24,000 bases of DNA, taken from assembly GCF_000236165.1 (NCBI RefSeq), contig NZ_CM001373.1, positions 397,677-421,676 on the forward strand, in the 5' to 3' direction. This stretch comes from Fluoribacter dumoffii NY 23 (GTDB lineage Bacteria > Pseudomonadota > Gammaproteobacteria > Legionellales > Legionellaceae). This document shows, one piece after another, positions 11,916-14,280 of this stretch. Positions within the stretch are counted from its first letter, which is position 1, and each line of letters starts with the position of its first letter. The position numbers and the translations under genes are program-made. A model generated the notes under the pieces. It saw only the letters and a program-made list of their open reading frames with translations. It ran no database searches and was not told the DNA's origin.

Positions 11916-12014
11916 GTTCCCGACTTAACGTTCTGCCACAAGATTAGGGAATGATAGTGGCTTTTCACAAGACCAATTGGGTTTCGCCAGACTCTCACTG
12001 GCTCTTCAGTTGTG
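11916..12014. repeat. Conserved ~100-nt block, copy A (direct repeat of 14123-14223), downstream of the recombinase pair
   Basis: Hand alignment to 14123-14223 gives roughly four fifths identity with two 1-nt indels, e.g. GTTC(C/T)CGACTTA(A/T)CGTTCT(G/A)CCACAAGATTAG(G/A)GAATGA. It contains the hairpin GCCAG(11986-11990)/CTGGC(11998-12002). Weaker similarity continues to about 12064. Confidence 0.75.
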
Positions 12015-12048
12015 TTATACTTAGTACTCTAAACTATTATAACAAGCA

Positions 12049-12100
12049 AATCAATCAAAACGTGTTTTATTTTTAAATTTAAAAAACGTTTTGATTGATT
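12049..12100. repeat. Perfect 15-bp inverted repeat with 22-nt A/T spacer abutting the recombinase stop codon
   Basis: AATCAATCAAAACGT (12049-12063) and ACGTTTTGATTGATT (12086-12100) are exact reverse complements. The spacer is GTTTTATTTTTAAATTTAAAAA. The recombinase stop codon is at 12102-12104. Confidence 0.85.
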
Positions 12101-12101
12101 T

Positions 12102-13001
12102 TCAGCCGCAATAAATTCTTGTGATCGACAGGCGAGAGTGCCCTAATTCGAGGCTAATCATTTGACGTGCTTTTCTATCTATGGCTTTTTCTATTGGATT
12201 CATGGCGTTGAATTTTATTCCACCTTCAAATGGACATGGCATTCCTTGGCTTTGTGGATCAAATAATTTAGTGAGTTCTCTATATCGTTTCTGGGCGTAG
12301 GCATGTCTTAATCCATGCAATTTACTAACTCCCATAGATTTAGCTTGCTCTTCATACTGACTTAAGTGCTGCTTATAGGTCCTATTTGATGGGATGAGAG
12401 ATTCTCCTGTACGAACTAACTGAGAAACCTTCGTTAACCATTGACGTTGTGCTTCATTTGTGATGTTTAATGTTCGGCCTATACCTCCTTTTGTCCAACT
12501 GGGTTTAATGATCAAGCTATCTCCATGGTGTGCTTCGCTTAGTGTGAATTTCATGGATTCTTCACGCCTTAAGCCAAAGAGCATTTGGCCTTCAAGGGAT
12601 AATCTAATGTAAGGATCGGTGCACTTATTTAAATCAATATGATGAATCGCCTTGTTGATTGAGGATACATAAGAGCGTTGGCTGATGTTGTATGCACTAT
12701 TTTCTGGCTTAATAAGTTTGGGATTATCCAACAGACAGGCTGCTTTGCGTAGTTTGGCCATGTAGTTTTTAATTGTTCCTGGGTTTTTTCCTTCAGATTT
12801 CCAGTGATCTACGAGTACATAGATATGTTTTGCTTTTAATCCTTTTATATGGCCAATTTTATAGCCAAGCTCATGTAAATCTTTCACACATCGAAAGAGC
12901 ATATGACGCATGTCTGATTGGCTGGCATAGGAATGGCCATATGCTTTTTTAACCAATTCATTGATTGAAAATTTTGCCGAACGCAATTTTGTATTACTCA
13001 T
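12102..13001 (-). CDS. Tyrosine recombinase / phage-type integrase (complete catalytic set)
   Basis: 300 aa from the ATG at 13001. Catalytic signature: FGLRREE (Arg I), TKGG (Lys), HGLRHAYA (His-x-x-Arg-His), LGHS (His III) and TRIY (Tyr nucleophile). The track's longer start at 13115 would overlap the upstream gene by 122 nt, so it was not used. Confidence 0.85.
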   Translation of the reverse strand: MSNTKLRSAKFSINELVKKAYGHSYASQSDMRHMLFRCVKDLHELGYKIGHIKGLKAKHIYVLVDHWKSEGKNPGTIKNYMAKLRKAACLLDNPKLIKPENSAYNISQRSYVSSINKAIHHIDLNKCTDPYIRLSLEGQMLFGLRREESMKFTLSEAHHGDSLIIKPSWTKGGIGRTLNITNEAQRQWLTKVSQLVRTGESLIPSNRTYKQHLSQYEEQAKSMGVSKLHGLRHAYAQKRYRELTKLFDPQSQGMPCPFEGGIKFNAMNPIEKAIDRKARQMISLELGHSRLSITRIYCG

Positions 13002-13797
13002 GCAGATAACTCCAAAGCGTGCGTCTGGATTGCAGCCCCATTTCACGCATGATTGTTTGTTTCGCCAGGTAAGGGGACAAGATTTGACACAGTTCTGGAT
13101 ACATACTCTTGGCATAAAAACAGCGGTAGCTCTTTGATGATGACAGGCCTATTTTTTTTATTGCATGGCTGTACGCGTCGCGTACAGAATGATATCCAAA
13201 AGTTAAAATCAAACTTTCTTCTTTGCATAGTGTTTGAAGTACGGTATTGGCTTGAGCTTGCCTATCATTTCTAACAGGAATCCTTCTGTCATGGCTGTTT
13301 GTGGCAATATCTCTTGTAATCCAAAGTGAATTTTCCTGAATATGGATAGCAGGATTTAGACGCATTGCTTCACTAAGCGTTAATCCAAAATAAATTTGAA
13401 ATTCGAGCACTATTTTTGCAATAGGATTTGTTAGTATTTCCGAATAATTATTTGGAAATACAGTTGTCTTGGAGCGAATTTGAACGCTTTTAATTCCCAA
13501 ATGCTGGTTACTAATATTATCAATTGTATGGTCAATACTTTGAAAAAATCTACGAATGAGGGTCATGTATTTCATGATGGTTTTGGGTTTGATCCCCTCT
13601 TTTTGCCAATGAGCAACAAGTTGCACCATATGATCATGAGTAACTGCATGCCATTTGGGGGGAACATGGCCAATATGATATAAATCACGAATCATTTTGT
13701 ATAATACAAAATGACGGTGTTTTTTCGTGCGGAATGACCCTGTGTGATTGTGTTTACAATACTGATCTACTTGTTGTCTAAGCTGACTTTTTCTCAT
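12994..13797 (-). CDS. Paralogous tyrosine-recombinase-like protein with degenerate active site
   Basis: 267 aa from the ATG at 13797, which is preceded by GAGGG. The N-terminal half is clearly paralogous to the downstream integrase (HWQKEGIKPKTIMKYM vs HWKSEGKNPGTIKNYM). At the catalytic positions it reads FGLTLSE (Arg I replaced by Thr), has no TKGG Lys, reads SYRCFYA (His II and the following His lost, Arg II kept) and MGLQS (His III replaced by Leu), and retains a Tyr in LWSY. It overlaps the downstream gene by 8 nt (ATGAGTAA). Confidence 0.72.
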   Translation of the reverse strand: MRKSQLRQQVDQYCKHNHTGSFRTKKHRHFVLYKMIRDLYHIGHVPPKWHAVTHDHMVQLVAHWQKEGIKPKTIMKYMTLIRRFFQSIDHTIDNISNQHLGIKSVQIRSKTTVFPNNYSEILTNPIAKIVLEFQIYFGLTLSEAMRLNPAIHIQENSLWITRDIATNSHDRRIPVRNDRQAQANTVLQTLCKEESLILTFGYHSVRDAYSHAIKKIGLSSSKSYRCFYAKSMYPELCQILSPYLAKQTIMREMGLQSRRTLWSYLHE

Positions 13798-14122
13798 CTG
13801 TAACCCTCTAGAACTTTTTGCCCGGGTATTTTGTTTAGTGTTGGTAGAGCGGCCTGCAAGATTGCAGTACCAGGCGTAGTGCCTCAAGGCTCAGTTCAGG
13901 GGCAAATCAGTTTTAAACTACAAACTTCTATTGACCTGATTACATAGGTACTACTTTTTTATGGTGGTGATCTCCTTAGGTTTAATGGTTTTAAATACAA
14001 CAAAGTCTCTACGAACTATTGTTGCGCACGGGCAATACAGAGAGGGTATTGTGAGGTTCAATTCTTAAAGAATTGTATTGCTTTTCATTACAATAGATTC
14101 TGCGAAGTGCAGATGGTGTTTT

Positions 14123-14223
14123 GTTCTCGACTTATCGTTCTACCACAAGATTAGAGAATGAGAGTGGCTATTGCATAAGACCTGTAAGGTTTCGCCGGAA
14201 TCGCACCGGTCTCGTCAGTTATG
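14123..14223. repeat. Conserved ~100-nt block, copy B (direct repeat of 11916-12014), upstream of the recombinase pair
   Basis: See copy A. It contains the equivalent hairpin GCCGG(14194-14198)/CCGGT(14206-14210) with a 7-nt loop. Weaker similarity continues to about 14254. Confidence 0.75.
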
Positions 14224-14280
14224 CTTAATATTACATTAGCAAAACGATTTGTGTTGGACAAGGGCTTTTGAATGATTATT

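What the first reader, a model, noticed from the sequence alone, without database searches (positions are those of the whole stretch)
11916..14262. Two direct copies of a ~100-150-nt conserved block bracket the recombinase gene pair, with one compensatory base-pair change
11916-12014 and 14123-14223 align in the same orientation at roughly four fifths identity. Weaker similarity continues another ~40 nt (AGCAAA..AAACG). Copy B lies ~330-430 nt upstream of the recombinase operon start, and copy A lies just beyond its 3' end. Both copies keep a 5-bp/7-nt-loop hairpin, and its fourth pair changes on both sides (A-T in copy A at 11989/11999; G-C in copy B at 14197/14207). The closing pair changes from G-C to G-T. 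That would remain a wobble only in a plus-strand RNA. Two readings are possible: diverged element ends or att-like sites of a minimal recombinase-only element, or a structured cis-RNA or DNA recognition module used by the recombinases. One covarying pair is thin evidence.
Basis: seen in the sequence. Interest (0 to 1): 0.75.

Follow-up and report, generated by a model that had tools for sequence, protein, structure and literature searches.

The report
Two hammerhead ribozyme leader cassettes
The two repeated blocks are copies of a self-cleaving hammerhead ribozyme fused to a small pseudoknotted RNA, read from the opposite strand; each appears to head its own operon (recombinase pair; anti-restriction gene) on a Legionella mobile element, and they do not look like recombination sites.

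Summary
The repeat is real: 11916-12014 and 14123-14223 are 81% identical and nothing else in the window resembles them. The functional strand is the minus strand, the strand of the genes. Each block has a complete type I hammerhead core with cleavage after C17 (11971 and 14179). A ~55-nt hairpin-plus-double-pseudoknot follows, and its 3' half is the start of Rfam RAGATH-32. Across 53 non-redundant Legionellaceae copies, 97.4% of cells pair and 20 of 27 pairs show double-sided changes. A conserved sigma-70-type promoter sits just upstream, so each ribozyme is predicted to lie at or near its transcript's 5' end. The order hammerhead+module, RAGATH-13, intA, intB, optional cargo, hammerhead+module, small ORF, ardA or ssb recurs in dozens of Legionella genomes and plasmids. 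Most likely, self-cleavage removes the triphosphate leader and leaves a 5'-OH mRNA that starts with the pseudoknot. The att-site reading is not supported. Hammerheads near Legionella ardA and integrases were reported in 2011. The pseudoknot structure, its tight link to the ribozyme and the promoter-proximal position appear undescribed. No cleavage or transcript data exist here.

The parts
14233..14261 (-). Predicted sigma-70 promoter of cassette B: -35 TTGTCC (14261..14256), a 17-nt spacer ending in TGC, and -10 TAATGT (14238..14233). The predicted start is about 14226-14225.
   Evidence: Read from the sequence. The motif is conserved in position in homologues. No TSS data exist, so this is inferred.
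14173..14224 (-). Hammerhead ribozyme B, type I. Stem I is GCAUAA (14224..14219) with UUAUGC (14178..14173). The core CUGACGA is at 14218..14212. Stem II (14211..14194) has a bulged A14210. GAAA is at 14193..14190, and stem III is ACC/GGU. The predicted cleavage is after C17 at 14179, between 14179 and 14178.
   Evidence: Core read. Model match of 92 bits. Stems covary in homologues. Rfam gives only a weak HH9 hit at 14236-14161, 18.6 bits.
14123..14172 (-). Module B, a double pseudoknot. P4 is GCCAC 14168..14164 with GUGGU 14146..14142. PKa is UUCUC 14158..14154 with GAGAA 14128..14124. PKb is U14150-A14139 and C14149-G14140. P5 is A14138-U14130 and C14137-G14131.
   Evidence: Alignment and pair counts. 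The UUCUC:GAGAA pairing is a compensatory variant of UUCCC:GGGAA.
13816..13911 (-). RAGATH-13 RNA motif (RF02688) in the 5' leader. It ends 18 nt before the intA ATG.
   Evidence: 80.0 bits, equal to the gathering score, E 4.5e-17. It was not listed in gathering mode. It occupies the same position in 11 of 18 homologous loci at 83-107 bits.
12994..13797 (-). intA, 267 aa from the ATG at 13797. It is a paralogue of intB with the N-terminal SAM-like domain only. It lacks the conserved catalytic residues and is probably not catalytic.
   Evidence: Pfam PF12834 only. 24% identity to intB. Conservation over 49 homologues.
12102..13001 (-). intB, 299 aa from the ATG at 13001, overlapping intA by 8 nt. 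It is a tyrosine recombinase with the catalytic residues R145, K171, H229, R232, H288 and Y297.
   Evidence: Pfam PF12834 and PF12835. Residues are at least 97% conserved over 52 homologues. Homologues occur on 194 plasmids of many genera.
12048..12101 (.). Palindrome with 27-nt arms directly after the intB stop codon and overlapping the -35 region of cassette A. It is a candidate intB terminator and/or an operator.
   Evidence: the repeat finder I1. It is conserved with co-varying arms in the closest clade. Its function was not tested.
12036..12044 (-). Predicted extended -10 (TGT-TATAAT) of cassette A. The predicted start is about 12030-12028, some 15 nt before stem I.
   Evidence: Read from the sequence. 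In this clade the geometry differs from the majority, where the -10 ends 13-14 nt before CUGA. Inferred.
11966..12014 (-). Hammerhead ribozyme A, type I. Stem I is CACAA (12014..12010) with UUGUG (11970..11966). The core CUGAAGA is at 12009..12003. GAAA follows, and stem III is ACC/GGU. The predicted cleavage is after C17 at 11971.
   Evidence: Core read. Model match of 114 bits. Weak HH9 hit at 12014-11966, 22.7 bits. Covariation.
11916..11965 (-). Module A, a double pseudoknot. P4 is GCCAC 11961..11957 with GUGGC 11939..11935. PKa is UUCCC 11951..11947 with GGGAA 11921..11917. PKb is U11943-A11932 and C11942-G11933. P5 is A11931-U11923 and C11930-G11924.
   Evidence: The 3' half matches the 5' end of RAGATH-32 (11939-11875, 23.3 bits, below the gathering score of 41.8).
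10940..11770 (-). The operon headed by cassette A: an 86-aa ORF (11510-11770) and the antirestriction gene ardA (10940-11464).
   Evidence: Pfam ArdA, E 8e-45. The same order is seen in 54 distinct homologous cassettes.

Best explanation
Each block is a leader cassette transcribed from the minus strand: promoter, type I hammerhead ribozyme, then a ~55-nt hairpin-plus-double-pseudoknot that forms the core of RAGATH-32. Cassette B heads the intA-intB operon, whose leader also carries RAGATH-13. Cassette A heads the next operon, a small ORF plus ardA. Both belong to the conserved backbone of Legionellaceae conjugative plasmids and integrative elements.

Shown: all hammerhead core nucleotides are present, and three hammerhead stems plus four module helices are kept by compensatory changes. 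The module is almost always attached to a hammerhead. A promoter-like motif sits at a fixed distance upstream. The gene order is conserved.

Inferred: transcription starts 1-2 nt before stem I in most homologues and in copy B, and about 15 nt before it in copy A. The ribozyme folds and cuts after C17 (11971 and 14179). This discards a ~50-nt leader carrying the 5' triphosphate. The mRNA then begins with 5'-OH-UUGUG/UUAUG followed by the compact pseudoknot.

The likely consequence is a defined mRNA 5' end that is insulated from read-through and resists 5'-end-dependent decay. This would resemble a natural version of the synthetic RiboJ insulator. The pseudoknot either protects the new 5' end or helps the ribozyme fold; which of these is not settled.
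For: - Core: copy A reads CACAA-CUGAAGAG-CCAG[UGAGAGU]CUGG-CGAAAC-C[CAAUU]GGUC|UUGUG. Copy B has the same layout.
- Homologues: the pattern search found the same ribozyme in 103 genome stretches, essentially all Legionellaceae, and in 60 IMG/VR contigs.
- Link to the module: 131 of 145 Legionellaceae hammerheads carry it.
- Covariation: over 53 non-redundant copies, 97.4% of cells are paired and 20 of 27 pairs change on both sides. None of 500 shuffles reached this, and slid controls gave 18-50% paired.
- Module-first search in metagenomes: of 34 instances, 28 have an intact hammerhead core directly upstream. Two are cut by the contig end and one has a short stem II.
- Promoter: among 121 distinct upstream regions, 78 TTGnnn-N16-18-TAnnnT matches have a -10 ending 13-14 nt before CUGA, usually with TG. 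A is 90% conserved at -7. The independent metagenome set gave 21 of 23.
- Synteny: hammerhead+module, intA, intB, hammerhead+module occurs in 38 loci, and hammerhead+module, small ORF, ardA in 54 distinct cassettes. Other cassettes precede ssb.
- Literature: Perreault et al. 2011 (PMC3088659) reported bacterial hammerheads near integrases and hammerheads flanking gene blocks. They noted ardA immediately downstream of a hammerhead in three Legionella strains, and showed in vitro and in vivo cleavage for an Agrobacterium arrangement flanking ardA.
Against: - There is no cleavage assay, transcript map or TSS data for this element.
- No Rfam hammerhead model reaches its gathering score, either here or in 18 homologous loci.
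- Single-sequence folding is no better than shuffles (z +0.2 to +0.8) and does not recover the full hammerhead. The support is therefore comparative only.
- Copy B has a bulged A in stem II.
- In copy A's clade the promoter sits about 12 nt further upstream than in most homologues.
- No base-pair covariation links hammerhead loop II to the module, so a role in ribozyme folding is unproven.
- The stabilising effect of a 5'-OH end rests on general knowledge of RNase E and RppH decay. It has not been shown in Legionella.
Confidence: 0.75

Rival explanations
1. The blocks are only internal processing sites. One long transcript covering upstream cargo, intAB and ardA is cut into separate mRNAs, as proposed for prophage hammerheads, and neither cassette has its own promoter.
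For: This is the arrangement proposed by Perreault 2011. It fits the same ribozyme subfamily in IMG/VR contigs, where hammerheads follow coding sequence and 81 of 86 have no promoter motif upstream. Read-through transcripts would be cut here as well.
Against: The -35/-10 motif is conserved in position directly upstream in about two thirds or more of Legionella-type cassettes, and A is 90% conserved at the predicted +1. Terminator-like hairpins lie upstream of both cassettes, at 14346-14363 and 12048-12101. No sequence is conserved 5' of stem I.
Confidence: 0.1
2. The pseudoknot is a sensor. Binding of a ligand or protein to the module controls hammerhead cleavage, making a natural allosteric hammerhead. 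Alternatively the module is the functional RNA in its own right, and the ribozyme only frees its 5' end.
For: The module has many invariant unpaired nucleotides within a compact double pseudoknot, which is aptamer-like. It abuts stem I with a 2-5-nt linker. In one metagenomic locus (L181) the promoter and module are kept but the hammerhead is precisely missing, which hints at a hammerhead-independent role.
Against: No ligand or partner is known. There is no alternative-pairing signal between the module and the hammerhead strands, and no covariation with loop II. The L181 case is a single example. The downstream genes are diverse (recombinase, ardA, ssb), which gives no metabolic clue.
Confidence: 0.1
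3. The two hammerheads excise the 2.2-kb RNA between them, which is then circularised as in retrozymes and viroid-like RNAs.
For: Two same-sense hammerheads flank a 2,208-nt unit. Cleavage leaves 5'-OH and 2',3'-cyclic phosphate ends, which RtcB-type ligases can join. Perreault 2011 raised this possibility.
Against: A hybrid stem I (CACAA from A with UUAUG from B) has a central C-A mismatch. Upstream-type and downstream-type hammerheads consistently keep different, self-matched stems I across species. Each cassette has its own predicted promoter, and a hairpin separates intB from cassette A. The spacing varies from 2.2 to 6 kb because of cargo. Perreault et al. report they could not detect circular or spliced products.
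Confidence: 0.04
4. The blocks are att-like recombination sites or the ends of a minimal element moved by the intA/intB recombinases.
For: They are direct repeats bracketing a recombinase pair. They share identical runs of up to 12 nt. intB has an intact catalytic set.
Against: Every conserved feature is explained by RNA pairing on the gene-sense strand, including G-U pairs that would be A-C mismatches on the other strand. The same block precedes ardA and ssb operons that have no adjacent recombinase. intB homologues elsewhere lack the block. The copies keep lineage-consistent differences rather than being homogenised. No hybrid cassettes were seen in loci that lack intAB.
Confidence: 0.02

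Closest known systems
Type I hammerhead ribozymes of bacteria and prophages, including multi-hammerhead arrangements (Perreault et al. 2011, PMC3088659; Rfam clan CL00010)
   Same: It has the same catalytic core, three-stem junction and GUC cleavage site. It lies near integrase and ardA genes and flanks a short gene block. The 2011 paper explicitly notes a hammerhead upstream of ardA in three Legionella strains.
   Different: These copies score below every Rfam hammerhead gathering threshold. They appear to sit at the transcript's 5' end behind their own promoter rather than between cistrons. They are fused to a conserved 3' double pseudoknot that the phage relatives lack.
RAGATH-32 RNA motif (Rfam RF02922)
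   Same: The consensus start of RAGATH-32, GUGGCnGnACGUUnAGUCGGGAA, is the 3' half of the module. Full RAGATH-32 hits (53-98 bits) lie right after the upstream hammerhead in 7 of 18 homologous loci.
   Different: The Rfam model starts inside the 3' strand of P4 and treats this segment as unpaired (alignment). The P4, PKa, PKb and P5 pairings found here are not in the model. The window copies lack the model's two 3' hairpins: copy A scores 23 bits against a gathering score of 41.8, and copy B gives no hit.
STAXI motif (Rfam RF01728; Weinberg et al. 2010, PMC2864571)
   Same: It is a pseudoknotted RNA in the leaders of the same gene set: Ssb, topoisomerase, antirestriction and XerDC-type integrase genes of mobile elements. 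It precedes an intB homologue on a Salmonella plasmid.
   Different: The sequence and fold are unrelated, being tandem hairpin pseudoknots with UUCG loops. It has no ribozyme and is found in Enterobacterales. Any shared function is only an inference.
RiboJ synthetic insulator: a hammerhead ribozyme plus a downstream hairpin placed after a promoter (Lou et al. 2012; cited from my own knowledge, not read here)
   Same: It has the same architecture and the same proposed effect. A promoter-proximal hammerhead removes the variable 5' leader and leaves a 5'-OH mRNA that begins with a structured element.
   Different: RiboJ is engineered, derives from the sTRSV ribozyme and carries a simple hairpin. 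Here the element is natural and the 3' part is a conserved double pseudoknot of unknown specific role.
Retrozymes and viroid-like circular RNAs bounded by hammerheads
   Same: Two same-sense hammerheads flank a unit of RNA.
   Different: The stems I of the two ribozymes are not interchangeable, each has its own promoter, and the spacing is variable. There is no evidence of circles.

Membership tests
Hammerhead ribozyme (type I) | Conserved core nucleotides C3 U4 G5 A6 N7 G8 A9, G12 A13 A14, the A15.1-U16.1 pair, and H17 that is not G | tested here: met
   Both copies read CUGA(A/C)GA ... GAAA ... GUC, with C17 at 11971 and 14179. In the module-first metagenome search, which did not select for the core, 28 of 34 instances have an intact core.
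Hammerhead ribozyme (type I) | Three helices around the core, supported by covariation, with stem I open and stems II and III capped by loops | tested here: met
   Stem I has 5 of 5 pairs with double-sided changes, stem II 4 of 5 and stem III 1 of 3. Paired cells are 94-100%. Pair 19:29 reads AU, GC, UA and CG.
Hammerhead ribozyme (type I) | Reaches the curated Rfam score for a hammerhead family | tested here: not met
   There was no hit at gathering score in the window or in 18 homologous loci. The best scores were HH9 at 22.7 and 18.6 bits against a threshold of 52. This is a limit of the models, not of the core, which is complete.
Hammerhead ribozyme (type I) | Self-cleavage by internal transesterification | not testable with these tools
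   This needs in vitro transcription. Related bacterial arrangements cleave in vitro and in vivo (PMC3088659), but these copies have not been tested.
Hammerhead ribozyme (type I) | A tertiary contact that aligns stems I and II, either loop-loop or a pseudoknot | tested here: inconclusive
   No Watson-Crick covariation was found between loop II and the module or the linker. Phage relatives can pair loop II with the 3' tail, by my reading. A non-canonical contact with the module cannot be judged.
RAGATH-32 (RF02922) | Rfam gathering score of 41.8 bits | tested here: not met
   Copy A scores 23.3 bits and copy B gives no hit. Homologous upstream cassettes in other species score 53-98 bits.
RAGATH-32 (RF02922) | Conserved 5' segment GUGGCnGnACGUUnAGUCGGGAA | tested here: met
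   Copy A reads GUGGCAGAACGUUAAGUCGGGAA and copy B reads GUGGUAGAACGAUAAGUCGAGAA.
RAGATH-13 (RF02688) | Rfam gathering score of 80 bits and a position in the leader of the integrase pair | tested here: met
   It scores 80.0 bits with E 4.5e-17 at 13911-13816. This is borderline, since it was not listed in gathering mode. The same position occurs upstream of intA in 11 homologous loci at 83-107 bits.
Tyrosine recombinase (intB and intA) | Catalytic residues R, K, H-x-x-R, H/W and Y | tested here: met
   intB has R145, K171, H229, R232, H288 and Y297, each at least 97% conserved in 52 homologues. intA lacks them, for example a Thr at the Arg-I position, so intA alone would not meet this feature.
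att-type recombination sites or mobile-element ends | The sites occur with the recombinase wherever it occurs, and their conservation reflects protein-binding repeats around a crossover core | tested here: not met
   The blocks occur without the recombinase, before ardA and ssb. Recombinase homologues occur without the blocks. The conservation follows RNA helices.
att-type recombination sites or mobile-element ends | An excision or deletion junction joining the two sites | not testable with these tools
   This needs PCR or read-level data. No hybrid cassettes were seen among about 100 loci.
Hammerhead-bounded circular RNA (retrozyme-like) | The flanking ribozymes share a stem I, so the excised RNA can re-form a hammerhead across its ends | tested here: not met
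   Copy A has CACAA and copy B has UUAUG, which gives a C-A mismatch in the hybrid stem. The same split into upstream-type and downstream-type recurs in many species.

The most novel reading that the evidence does not exclude
The promoter-proximal hammerhead plus the 55-nt double pseudoknot is a dedicated 5'-end-remodelling leader for the early or 'leading-region' genes of conjugative elements (ssb, ardA, recombinase). In this reading the pseudoknot is a functional domain of its own. It could be a ligand or protein sensor, which would make this the first natural allosteric hammerhead. It could instead be a decay-blocking fold for the new 5'-OH end. Either way it would be a functional counterpart of the unexplained STAXI motif of enterobacterial plasmids.
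Probability: 0.2. Interest if true: 0.75.

Novelty: new member of a known kind. Interest (0 to 1): 0.45.

Why it matters
The biological role of bacterial hammerheads is still unclear. Here the same ribozyme subfamily is used in two ways.

- **In phage-like contigs:** it sits between cistrons, with no promoter upstream.
- **In Legionellaceae mobile elements:** it sits a fixed few nucleotides behind a predicted promoter. It is always welded to a conserved double pseudoknot, and it lies in front of ssb, ardA and a recombinase pair.

This gives a concrete hypothesis that is cheap to test: the ribozyme replaces the 5' triphosphate with a 5'-OH followed by a protective or regulatory fold. It also gives a base-paired structure to the previously unpaired half of RAGATH-32. 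It links the Legionella cassette to STAXI through their shared gene set. For annotation, Rfam's hammerhead models miss this whole subfamily at gathering score.

Tried and rejected
- **Rfam and tRNA scans.** Rfam at gathering score on the whole window found nothing, and ARAGORN found no tRNA or tmRNA. The repeat is therefore not a duplicated tRNA or tmRNA integration target.
- **Literature.** Searches for 'RAGATH-13', 'RAGATH-32' and hammerhead+ardA+conjugative returned no papers. Weinberg 2015 (PMC4509812) is not held, and the 2017 paper has no held supplements. I could not check what the discoverers said about RAGATH-13 or RAGATH-32.
- **Single-sequence folding.** Folding either strand gave energies no better than shuffles and is not informative.
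- **Extra pairing CUAA:UUAG.** A proposed extension of the pseudoknot was rejected. The U varies to C or A with no compensating change.
- **Loop II pairing with the module or linker.** No covariation was found.
- **CsrA-type GGA binding site at GGGAA.** Rejected, because GGG covaries to GAG or AGG together with the loop.
- **Alternative pairing of CACAA with the second UUGUG inside P4.** This is possible only in the window's clade and is not conserved.
- **Recombinase searches.** Sequence searches of PDB and NCBIfam gave nothing usable.
- **Hammerheads near intB homologues elsewhere.** None was found on Agrobacterium, Francisella or Salmonella plasmids. My regex would miss type II hammerheads, although the Rfam E-value scan also found none.
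- **Third copy in the window.** None was found.

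
Full report
**Observation.** The two blocks exist as described. A global alignment of 11916-12014 with 14123-14223 gives 82 of 101 identical columns, and no other place in the window resembles them. The 5-bp hairpin with a 7-nt loop and its A-T to G-C change are at exactly the stated coordinates.

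**Strand and identity.** All neighbouring genes are on the minus strand. Read in that sense, copy A is CACAA-CUGAAGAG-CCAG[UGAGAGU]CUGG-CGAAAC-C[CAAUU]GGUC|UUGUG. Copy B is GCAUAA-CUGACGAG-(A)CCGG[UGCGAUU]CCGG-CGAAAC-C[UUACA]GGUC|UUAUGC.
- This is the complete hammerhead core: C3-A9, G12-A14, the A15.1-U16.1 pair and C17.
- Stems II and III are capped and stem I is open, so it is a type I hammerhead.
- The plus-strand 'G-T closing pair' of copy B is, in gene sense, a G10.1-C11.1 pair with a bulged A.
- Rfam in E-value mode gives only weak HH9 hits on both copies. It also gives a weak RAGATH-32 hit on the 3' part of copy A, and RAGATH-13 at 13911-13816 at exactly its gathering score. Nothing reaches gathering score in the standard scan.

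**Homologues.** BLAST against plasmids found the block on two Legionella plasmids, and each has two hammerheads on the gene strand. A pattern built from the core and stem I found 103 genome stretches, essentially all Legionellaceae, and 60 IMG/VR contigs.
- In the viral contigs the hammerheads stand 20-30 nt before a ribosome-binding site and start codon. There are several per contig and they have no further conserved RNA.
- In Legionellaceae, 131 of 145 hammerheads are followed by the same conserved ~55 nt seen in the window.

**Structure of the block.** I aligned 116 distinct copies and computed mutual information and pair counts. The hammerhead stems covary strongly, for example 19:29 as AU 61, GC 20, UA 17 and CG 15. 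The downstream part forms four elements:
- **P4:** a 5-bp hairpin, GCCAC/GUGGC, which varies to GCUAC/GUAGC and GCCAU/AUGGC.
- **PKa:** a pseudoknot between the loop UUCCC and the downstream GGGAA. It varies to UUCUC:GAGAA, as in window copy B, and to UUCCU:AGGAA.
- **PKb:** a second 2-bp pseudoknot, with pairs UA 85/CG 21/UG 6 and CG 60/UG 34/UA 22.
- **P5:** a 2-bp mini-hairpin.

On 53 copies less than 88% identical, the full structure has 97.4% of cells paired and 20 of 27 pairs with double-sided changes. No shuffle out of 500 reached these values, and sliding the partners drops pairing to 18-50%. The many G-U pairs lie on the gene-sense strand, which points to RNA. The Rfam RAGATH-32 model begins in the 3' strand of P4 and treats this segment as unpaired. 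Full RAGATH-32 hits follow the upstream hammerhead in 7 of 18 homologous loci.

**Link between ribozyme and module.** I searched metagenomes with a pattern taken from the module only. Of the 34 instances found:
- 28 have an intact hammerhead core directly upstream.
- 2 are cut by the contig end.
- 1 has a hammerhead with a short stem II, and 1 has a decayed hammerhead.
- 1 is rearranged.
- 1 (L181) has the promoter abutting the module, with the ribozyme precisely missing.

**Promoter.** I right-aligned 121 distinct upstream regions on CUGA. This shows TTGnnn, a 16-17-nt spacer usually ending in TGn, and TAnnnT.
- 78 matches have a -10 ending 13-14 nt before CUGA, and A is present at -7 in 90% of regions.
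- The predicted start is therefore 1-2 nt before the 5' strand of stem I. That explains why nothing 5' of stem I is conserved.
- The module-first metagenome set shows the motif in 21 of 23 cases. The viral hammerheads lack it in 81 of 86.
- In the window, cassette B has TTGTCC-17-TAATGT at 14261..14233. Cassette A's clade instead has TGT-TATAAT at 12044..12036, about 15 nt further from stem I.
- These are sequence predictions only.

**Context.** A tblastn of the window's proteins against the loci shows a fixed order on one strand. It runs hammerhead+module, then a 350-800-nt leader with RAGATH-13, then intA, intB, 0-4 kb of optional cargo, hammerhead+module, a small ORF, and ardA.
- Both flanking ribozymes are present in 38 loci, and the ardA cassette in 54 distinct versions.
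- Other cassettes precede a small ORF plus ssb.
- On plasmids the unit lies next to traD/traG, ssb and DUF932 genes.
- intB keeps the tyrosine-recombinase residues R145, K171, H229, R232, H288 and Y297. intA, a 24%-identical paralogue, does not.
- intB homologues occur on 194 plasmids of many genera, several of them only 4-15 kb. From general knowledge of small plasmids this suggests multimer resolution, but that was not tested.
- Three such plasmids have no hammerhead near the gene. On a Salmonella plasmid the gene is preceded by STAXI motifs.
- STAXI was defined by its association with Ssb, topoisomerase, antirestriction and XerDC-integrase genes (PMC2864571). That is the same gene set as here.

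**Mechanism.**
- **Shown:** the ribozyme core, seven helices supported by covariation, the tight ribozyme-module link, the position-fixed promoter motif and the operon architecture.
- **Inferred:** each cassette starts its own transcript. The hammerhead cuts after C17 and discards a ~50-nt triphosphorylated leader. The mRNA then begins with a 5'-OH, a few unpaired bases and the double pseudoknot.
- **From general knowledge:** proteobacterial mRNA decay is stimulated by a 5' monophosphate produced by RppH and sensed by RNase E, and blocked by 5' structure. This should give a defined, insulated and more stable 5' end. The synthetic RiboJ part was designed on the same logic.
- **Open:** the module occurs only in the promoter-proximal version and not in the intercistronic phage version. 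This suggests its role is tied to the new 5' end, or to folding a ribozyme that has no upstream sequence. Which of these holds cannot be decided here.

**Rivals.**
- **Pure intercistronic processing.** This is disfavoured by the promoter motif and by hairpins upstream of both cassettes.
- **Circular RNA between the two ribozymes.** This is disfavoured by non-interchangeable stems I, separate promoters and variable spacing. Perreault et al. also failed to find circles.
- **A sensor role for the pseudoknot.** This remains open.
- **The att-site reading.** This is not supported. The blocks occur without the recombinase and the recombinase occurs without the blocks, and the conservation follows RNA helices.

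**What is known and what is new.** Perreault et al. 2011 reported hammerheads near bacterial integrases and pairs or triples flanking genes. They also reported a hammerhead just upstream of ardA in three Legionella strains (PMC3088659). RAGATH-13 and RAGATH-32 are Rfam families. The window therefore holds new members of known kinds. Three things were not found in the literature I could reach: the double-pseudoknot structure joining the ribozyme to RAGATH-32, the near-obligatory ribozyme-module link, and the promoter-proximal placement in contrast to phage relatives. I could not read Weinberg 2015 or its supplement, so prior description cannot be excluded.

**Caveats.**
- There are no experimental data for this element.
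- Thermodynamic folding is uninformative.
- The genome set was collected with a pattern that fixes the core and stem I. Core conservation in that set is therefore circular, and only the module-first search is unbiased for it.
- The sequences are phylogenetically related, so the shuffle controls overstate significance. The slid controls and the multiple independent pair types are the stronger evidence.

Noticed in passing
window 13816-13911 (-): RAGATH-13 (RF02688) scores exactly its gathering score (80.0 bits, E 4.5e-17) and ends 18 nt before the intA start codon. It has the same position in 11 of 18 homologous loci. Rfam types it as a ribozyme, but I found no paper on it and its function is unknown. 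It is a candidate cis-regulator of the recombinase operon.
   Followed up: partly
window 12048-12101: A palindrome with 27-nt arms lies directly after the intB stop codon and overlaps the -35 region of cassette A. It is conserved in the closest clade with co-varying arms, including a U-G pair in gene sense. It could be the intB terminator, an operator or both.
   Followed up: partly
window 14281-14311: A GC-rich inverted repeat (TTGAGCAATCGCG...CGCGCTTGCTCAA) lies about 20 nt upstream of the -35 of cassette B. Equivalent repeats with different but self-complementary arms stand at the same place in other species. It may be an operator or a structural element, and it has no T-run on either strand.
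   Followed up: no
window 12994-13797 (-) and 12102-13001 (-): The 'recombinase pair' is asymmetric. intB keeps all tyrosine-recombinase catalytic residues, while intA is a 24%-identical paralogue that has lost them. The two genes overlap by 8 nt, which suggests translational coupling and a catalytic-plus-accessory heteromer.
   Followed up: partly
L002 1105-3030; L078, L088, L097, L108 (between intB and the downstream hammerhead): The space between intB and the downstream cassette holds from 0 to about 4 kb of variable cargo. In L. adelaidensis plasmid 9 this is an aminoglycoside phosphotransferase and a GNAT. The interval looks like an insertion hot spot next to the recombinase.
   Followed up: no
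L181 about 700-880 (-), TARA scaffold273866_1: This is a natural variant in which the promoter abuts the module and the hammerhead is precisely absent. The primary transcript would start about where the cleaved product normally starts. A second cassette on the same scaffold (L186) keeps its hammerhead.
   Followed up: partly
L200 3015-3414 (+), Salmonella plasmid NZ_CP022016: Two STAXI motifs (72.5 and 34.6 bits) stand upstream of an intB homologue. STAXI shares its associated gene set (ssb, antirestriction, integrase) with the Legionella hammerhead+module cassette, which suggests analogous leaders in different lineages.
   Followed up: partly
L003-L062 (IMG/VR contigs): The same hammerhead subfamily, with stem I CACAA/UUGUG and variants, occurs several times per phage-like contig. 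Each copy lies 20-30 nt before a ribosome-binding site. Loop II often appears complementary to the 3' tail, for example GUUAA with UUAAC, which could form a stabilising pseudoknot. They have no module and no promoter.
   Followed up: partly
window 14346-14393 (-): Two adjacent hairpins lie downstream of the beta-lactamase/TPR gene. One is terminator-like (CGCAGCCTAAGGGCTGCG followed by a T-rich tail). They probably end the upstream cargo transcript before cassette B.
   Followed up: no
window 9371-10714 (-), 22551-22964 (-), 15-8495 (+): The cargo around the cassettes is typical of a Legionella genomic island. It includes a NUDIX protein with a weak F-box match, an avidin-family protein, a large 1814-aa ORF with acyltransferase and desaturase neighbours, and a TylF-type methyltransferase. 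L130 (Legionella sp. W05-934-2) and L150 are the closest sequences found.
   Followed up: no
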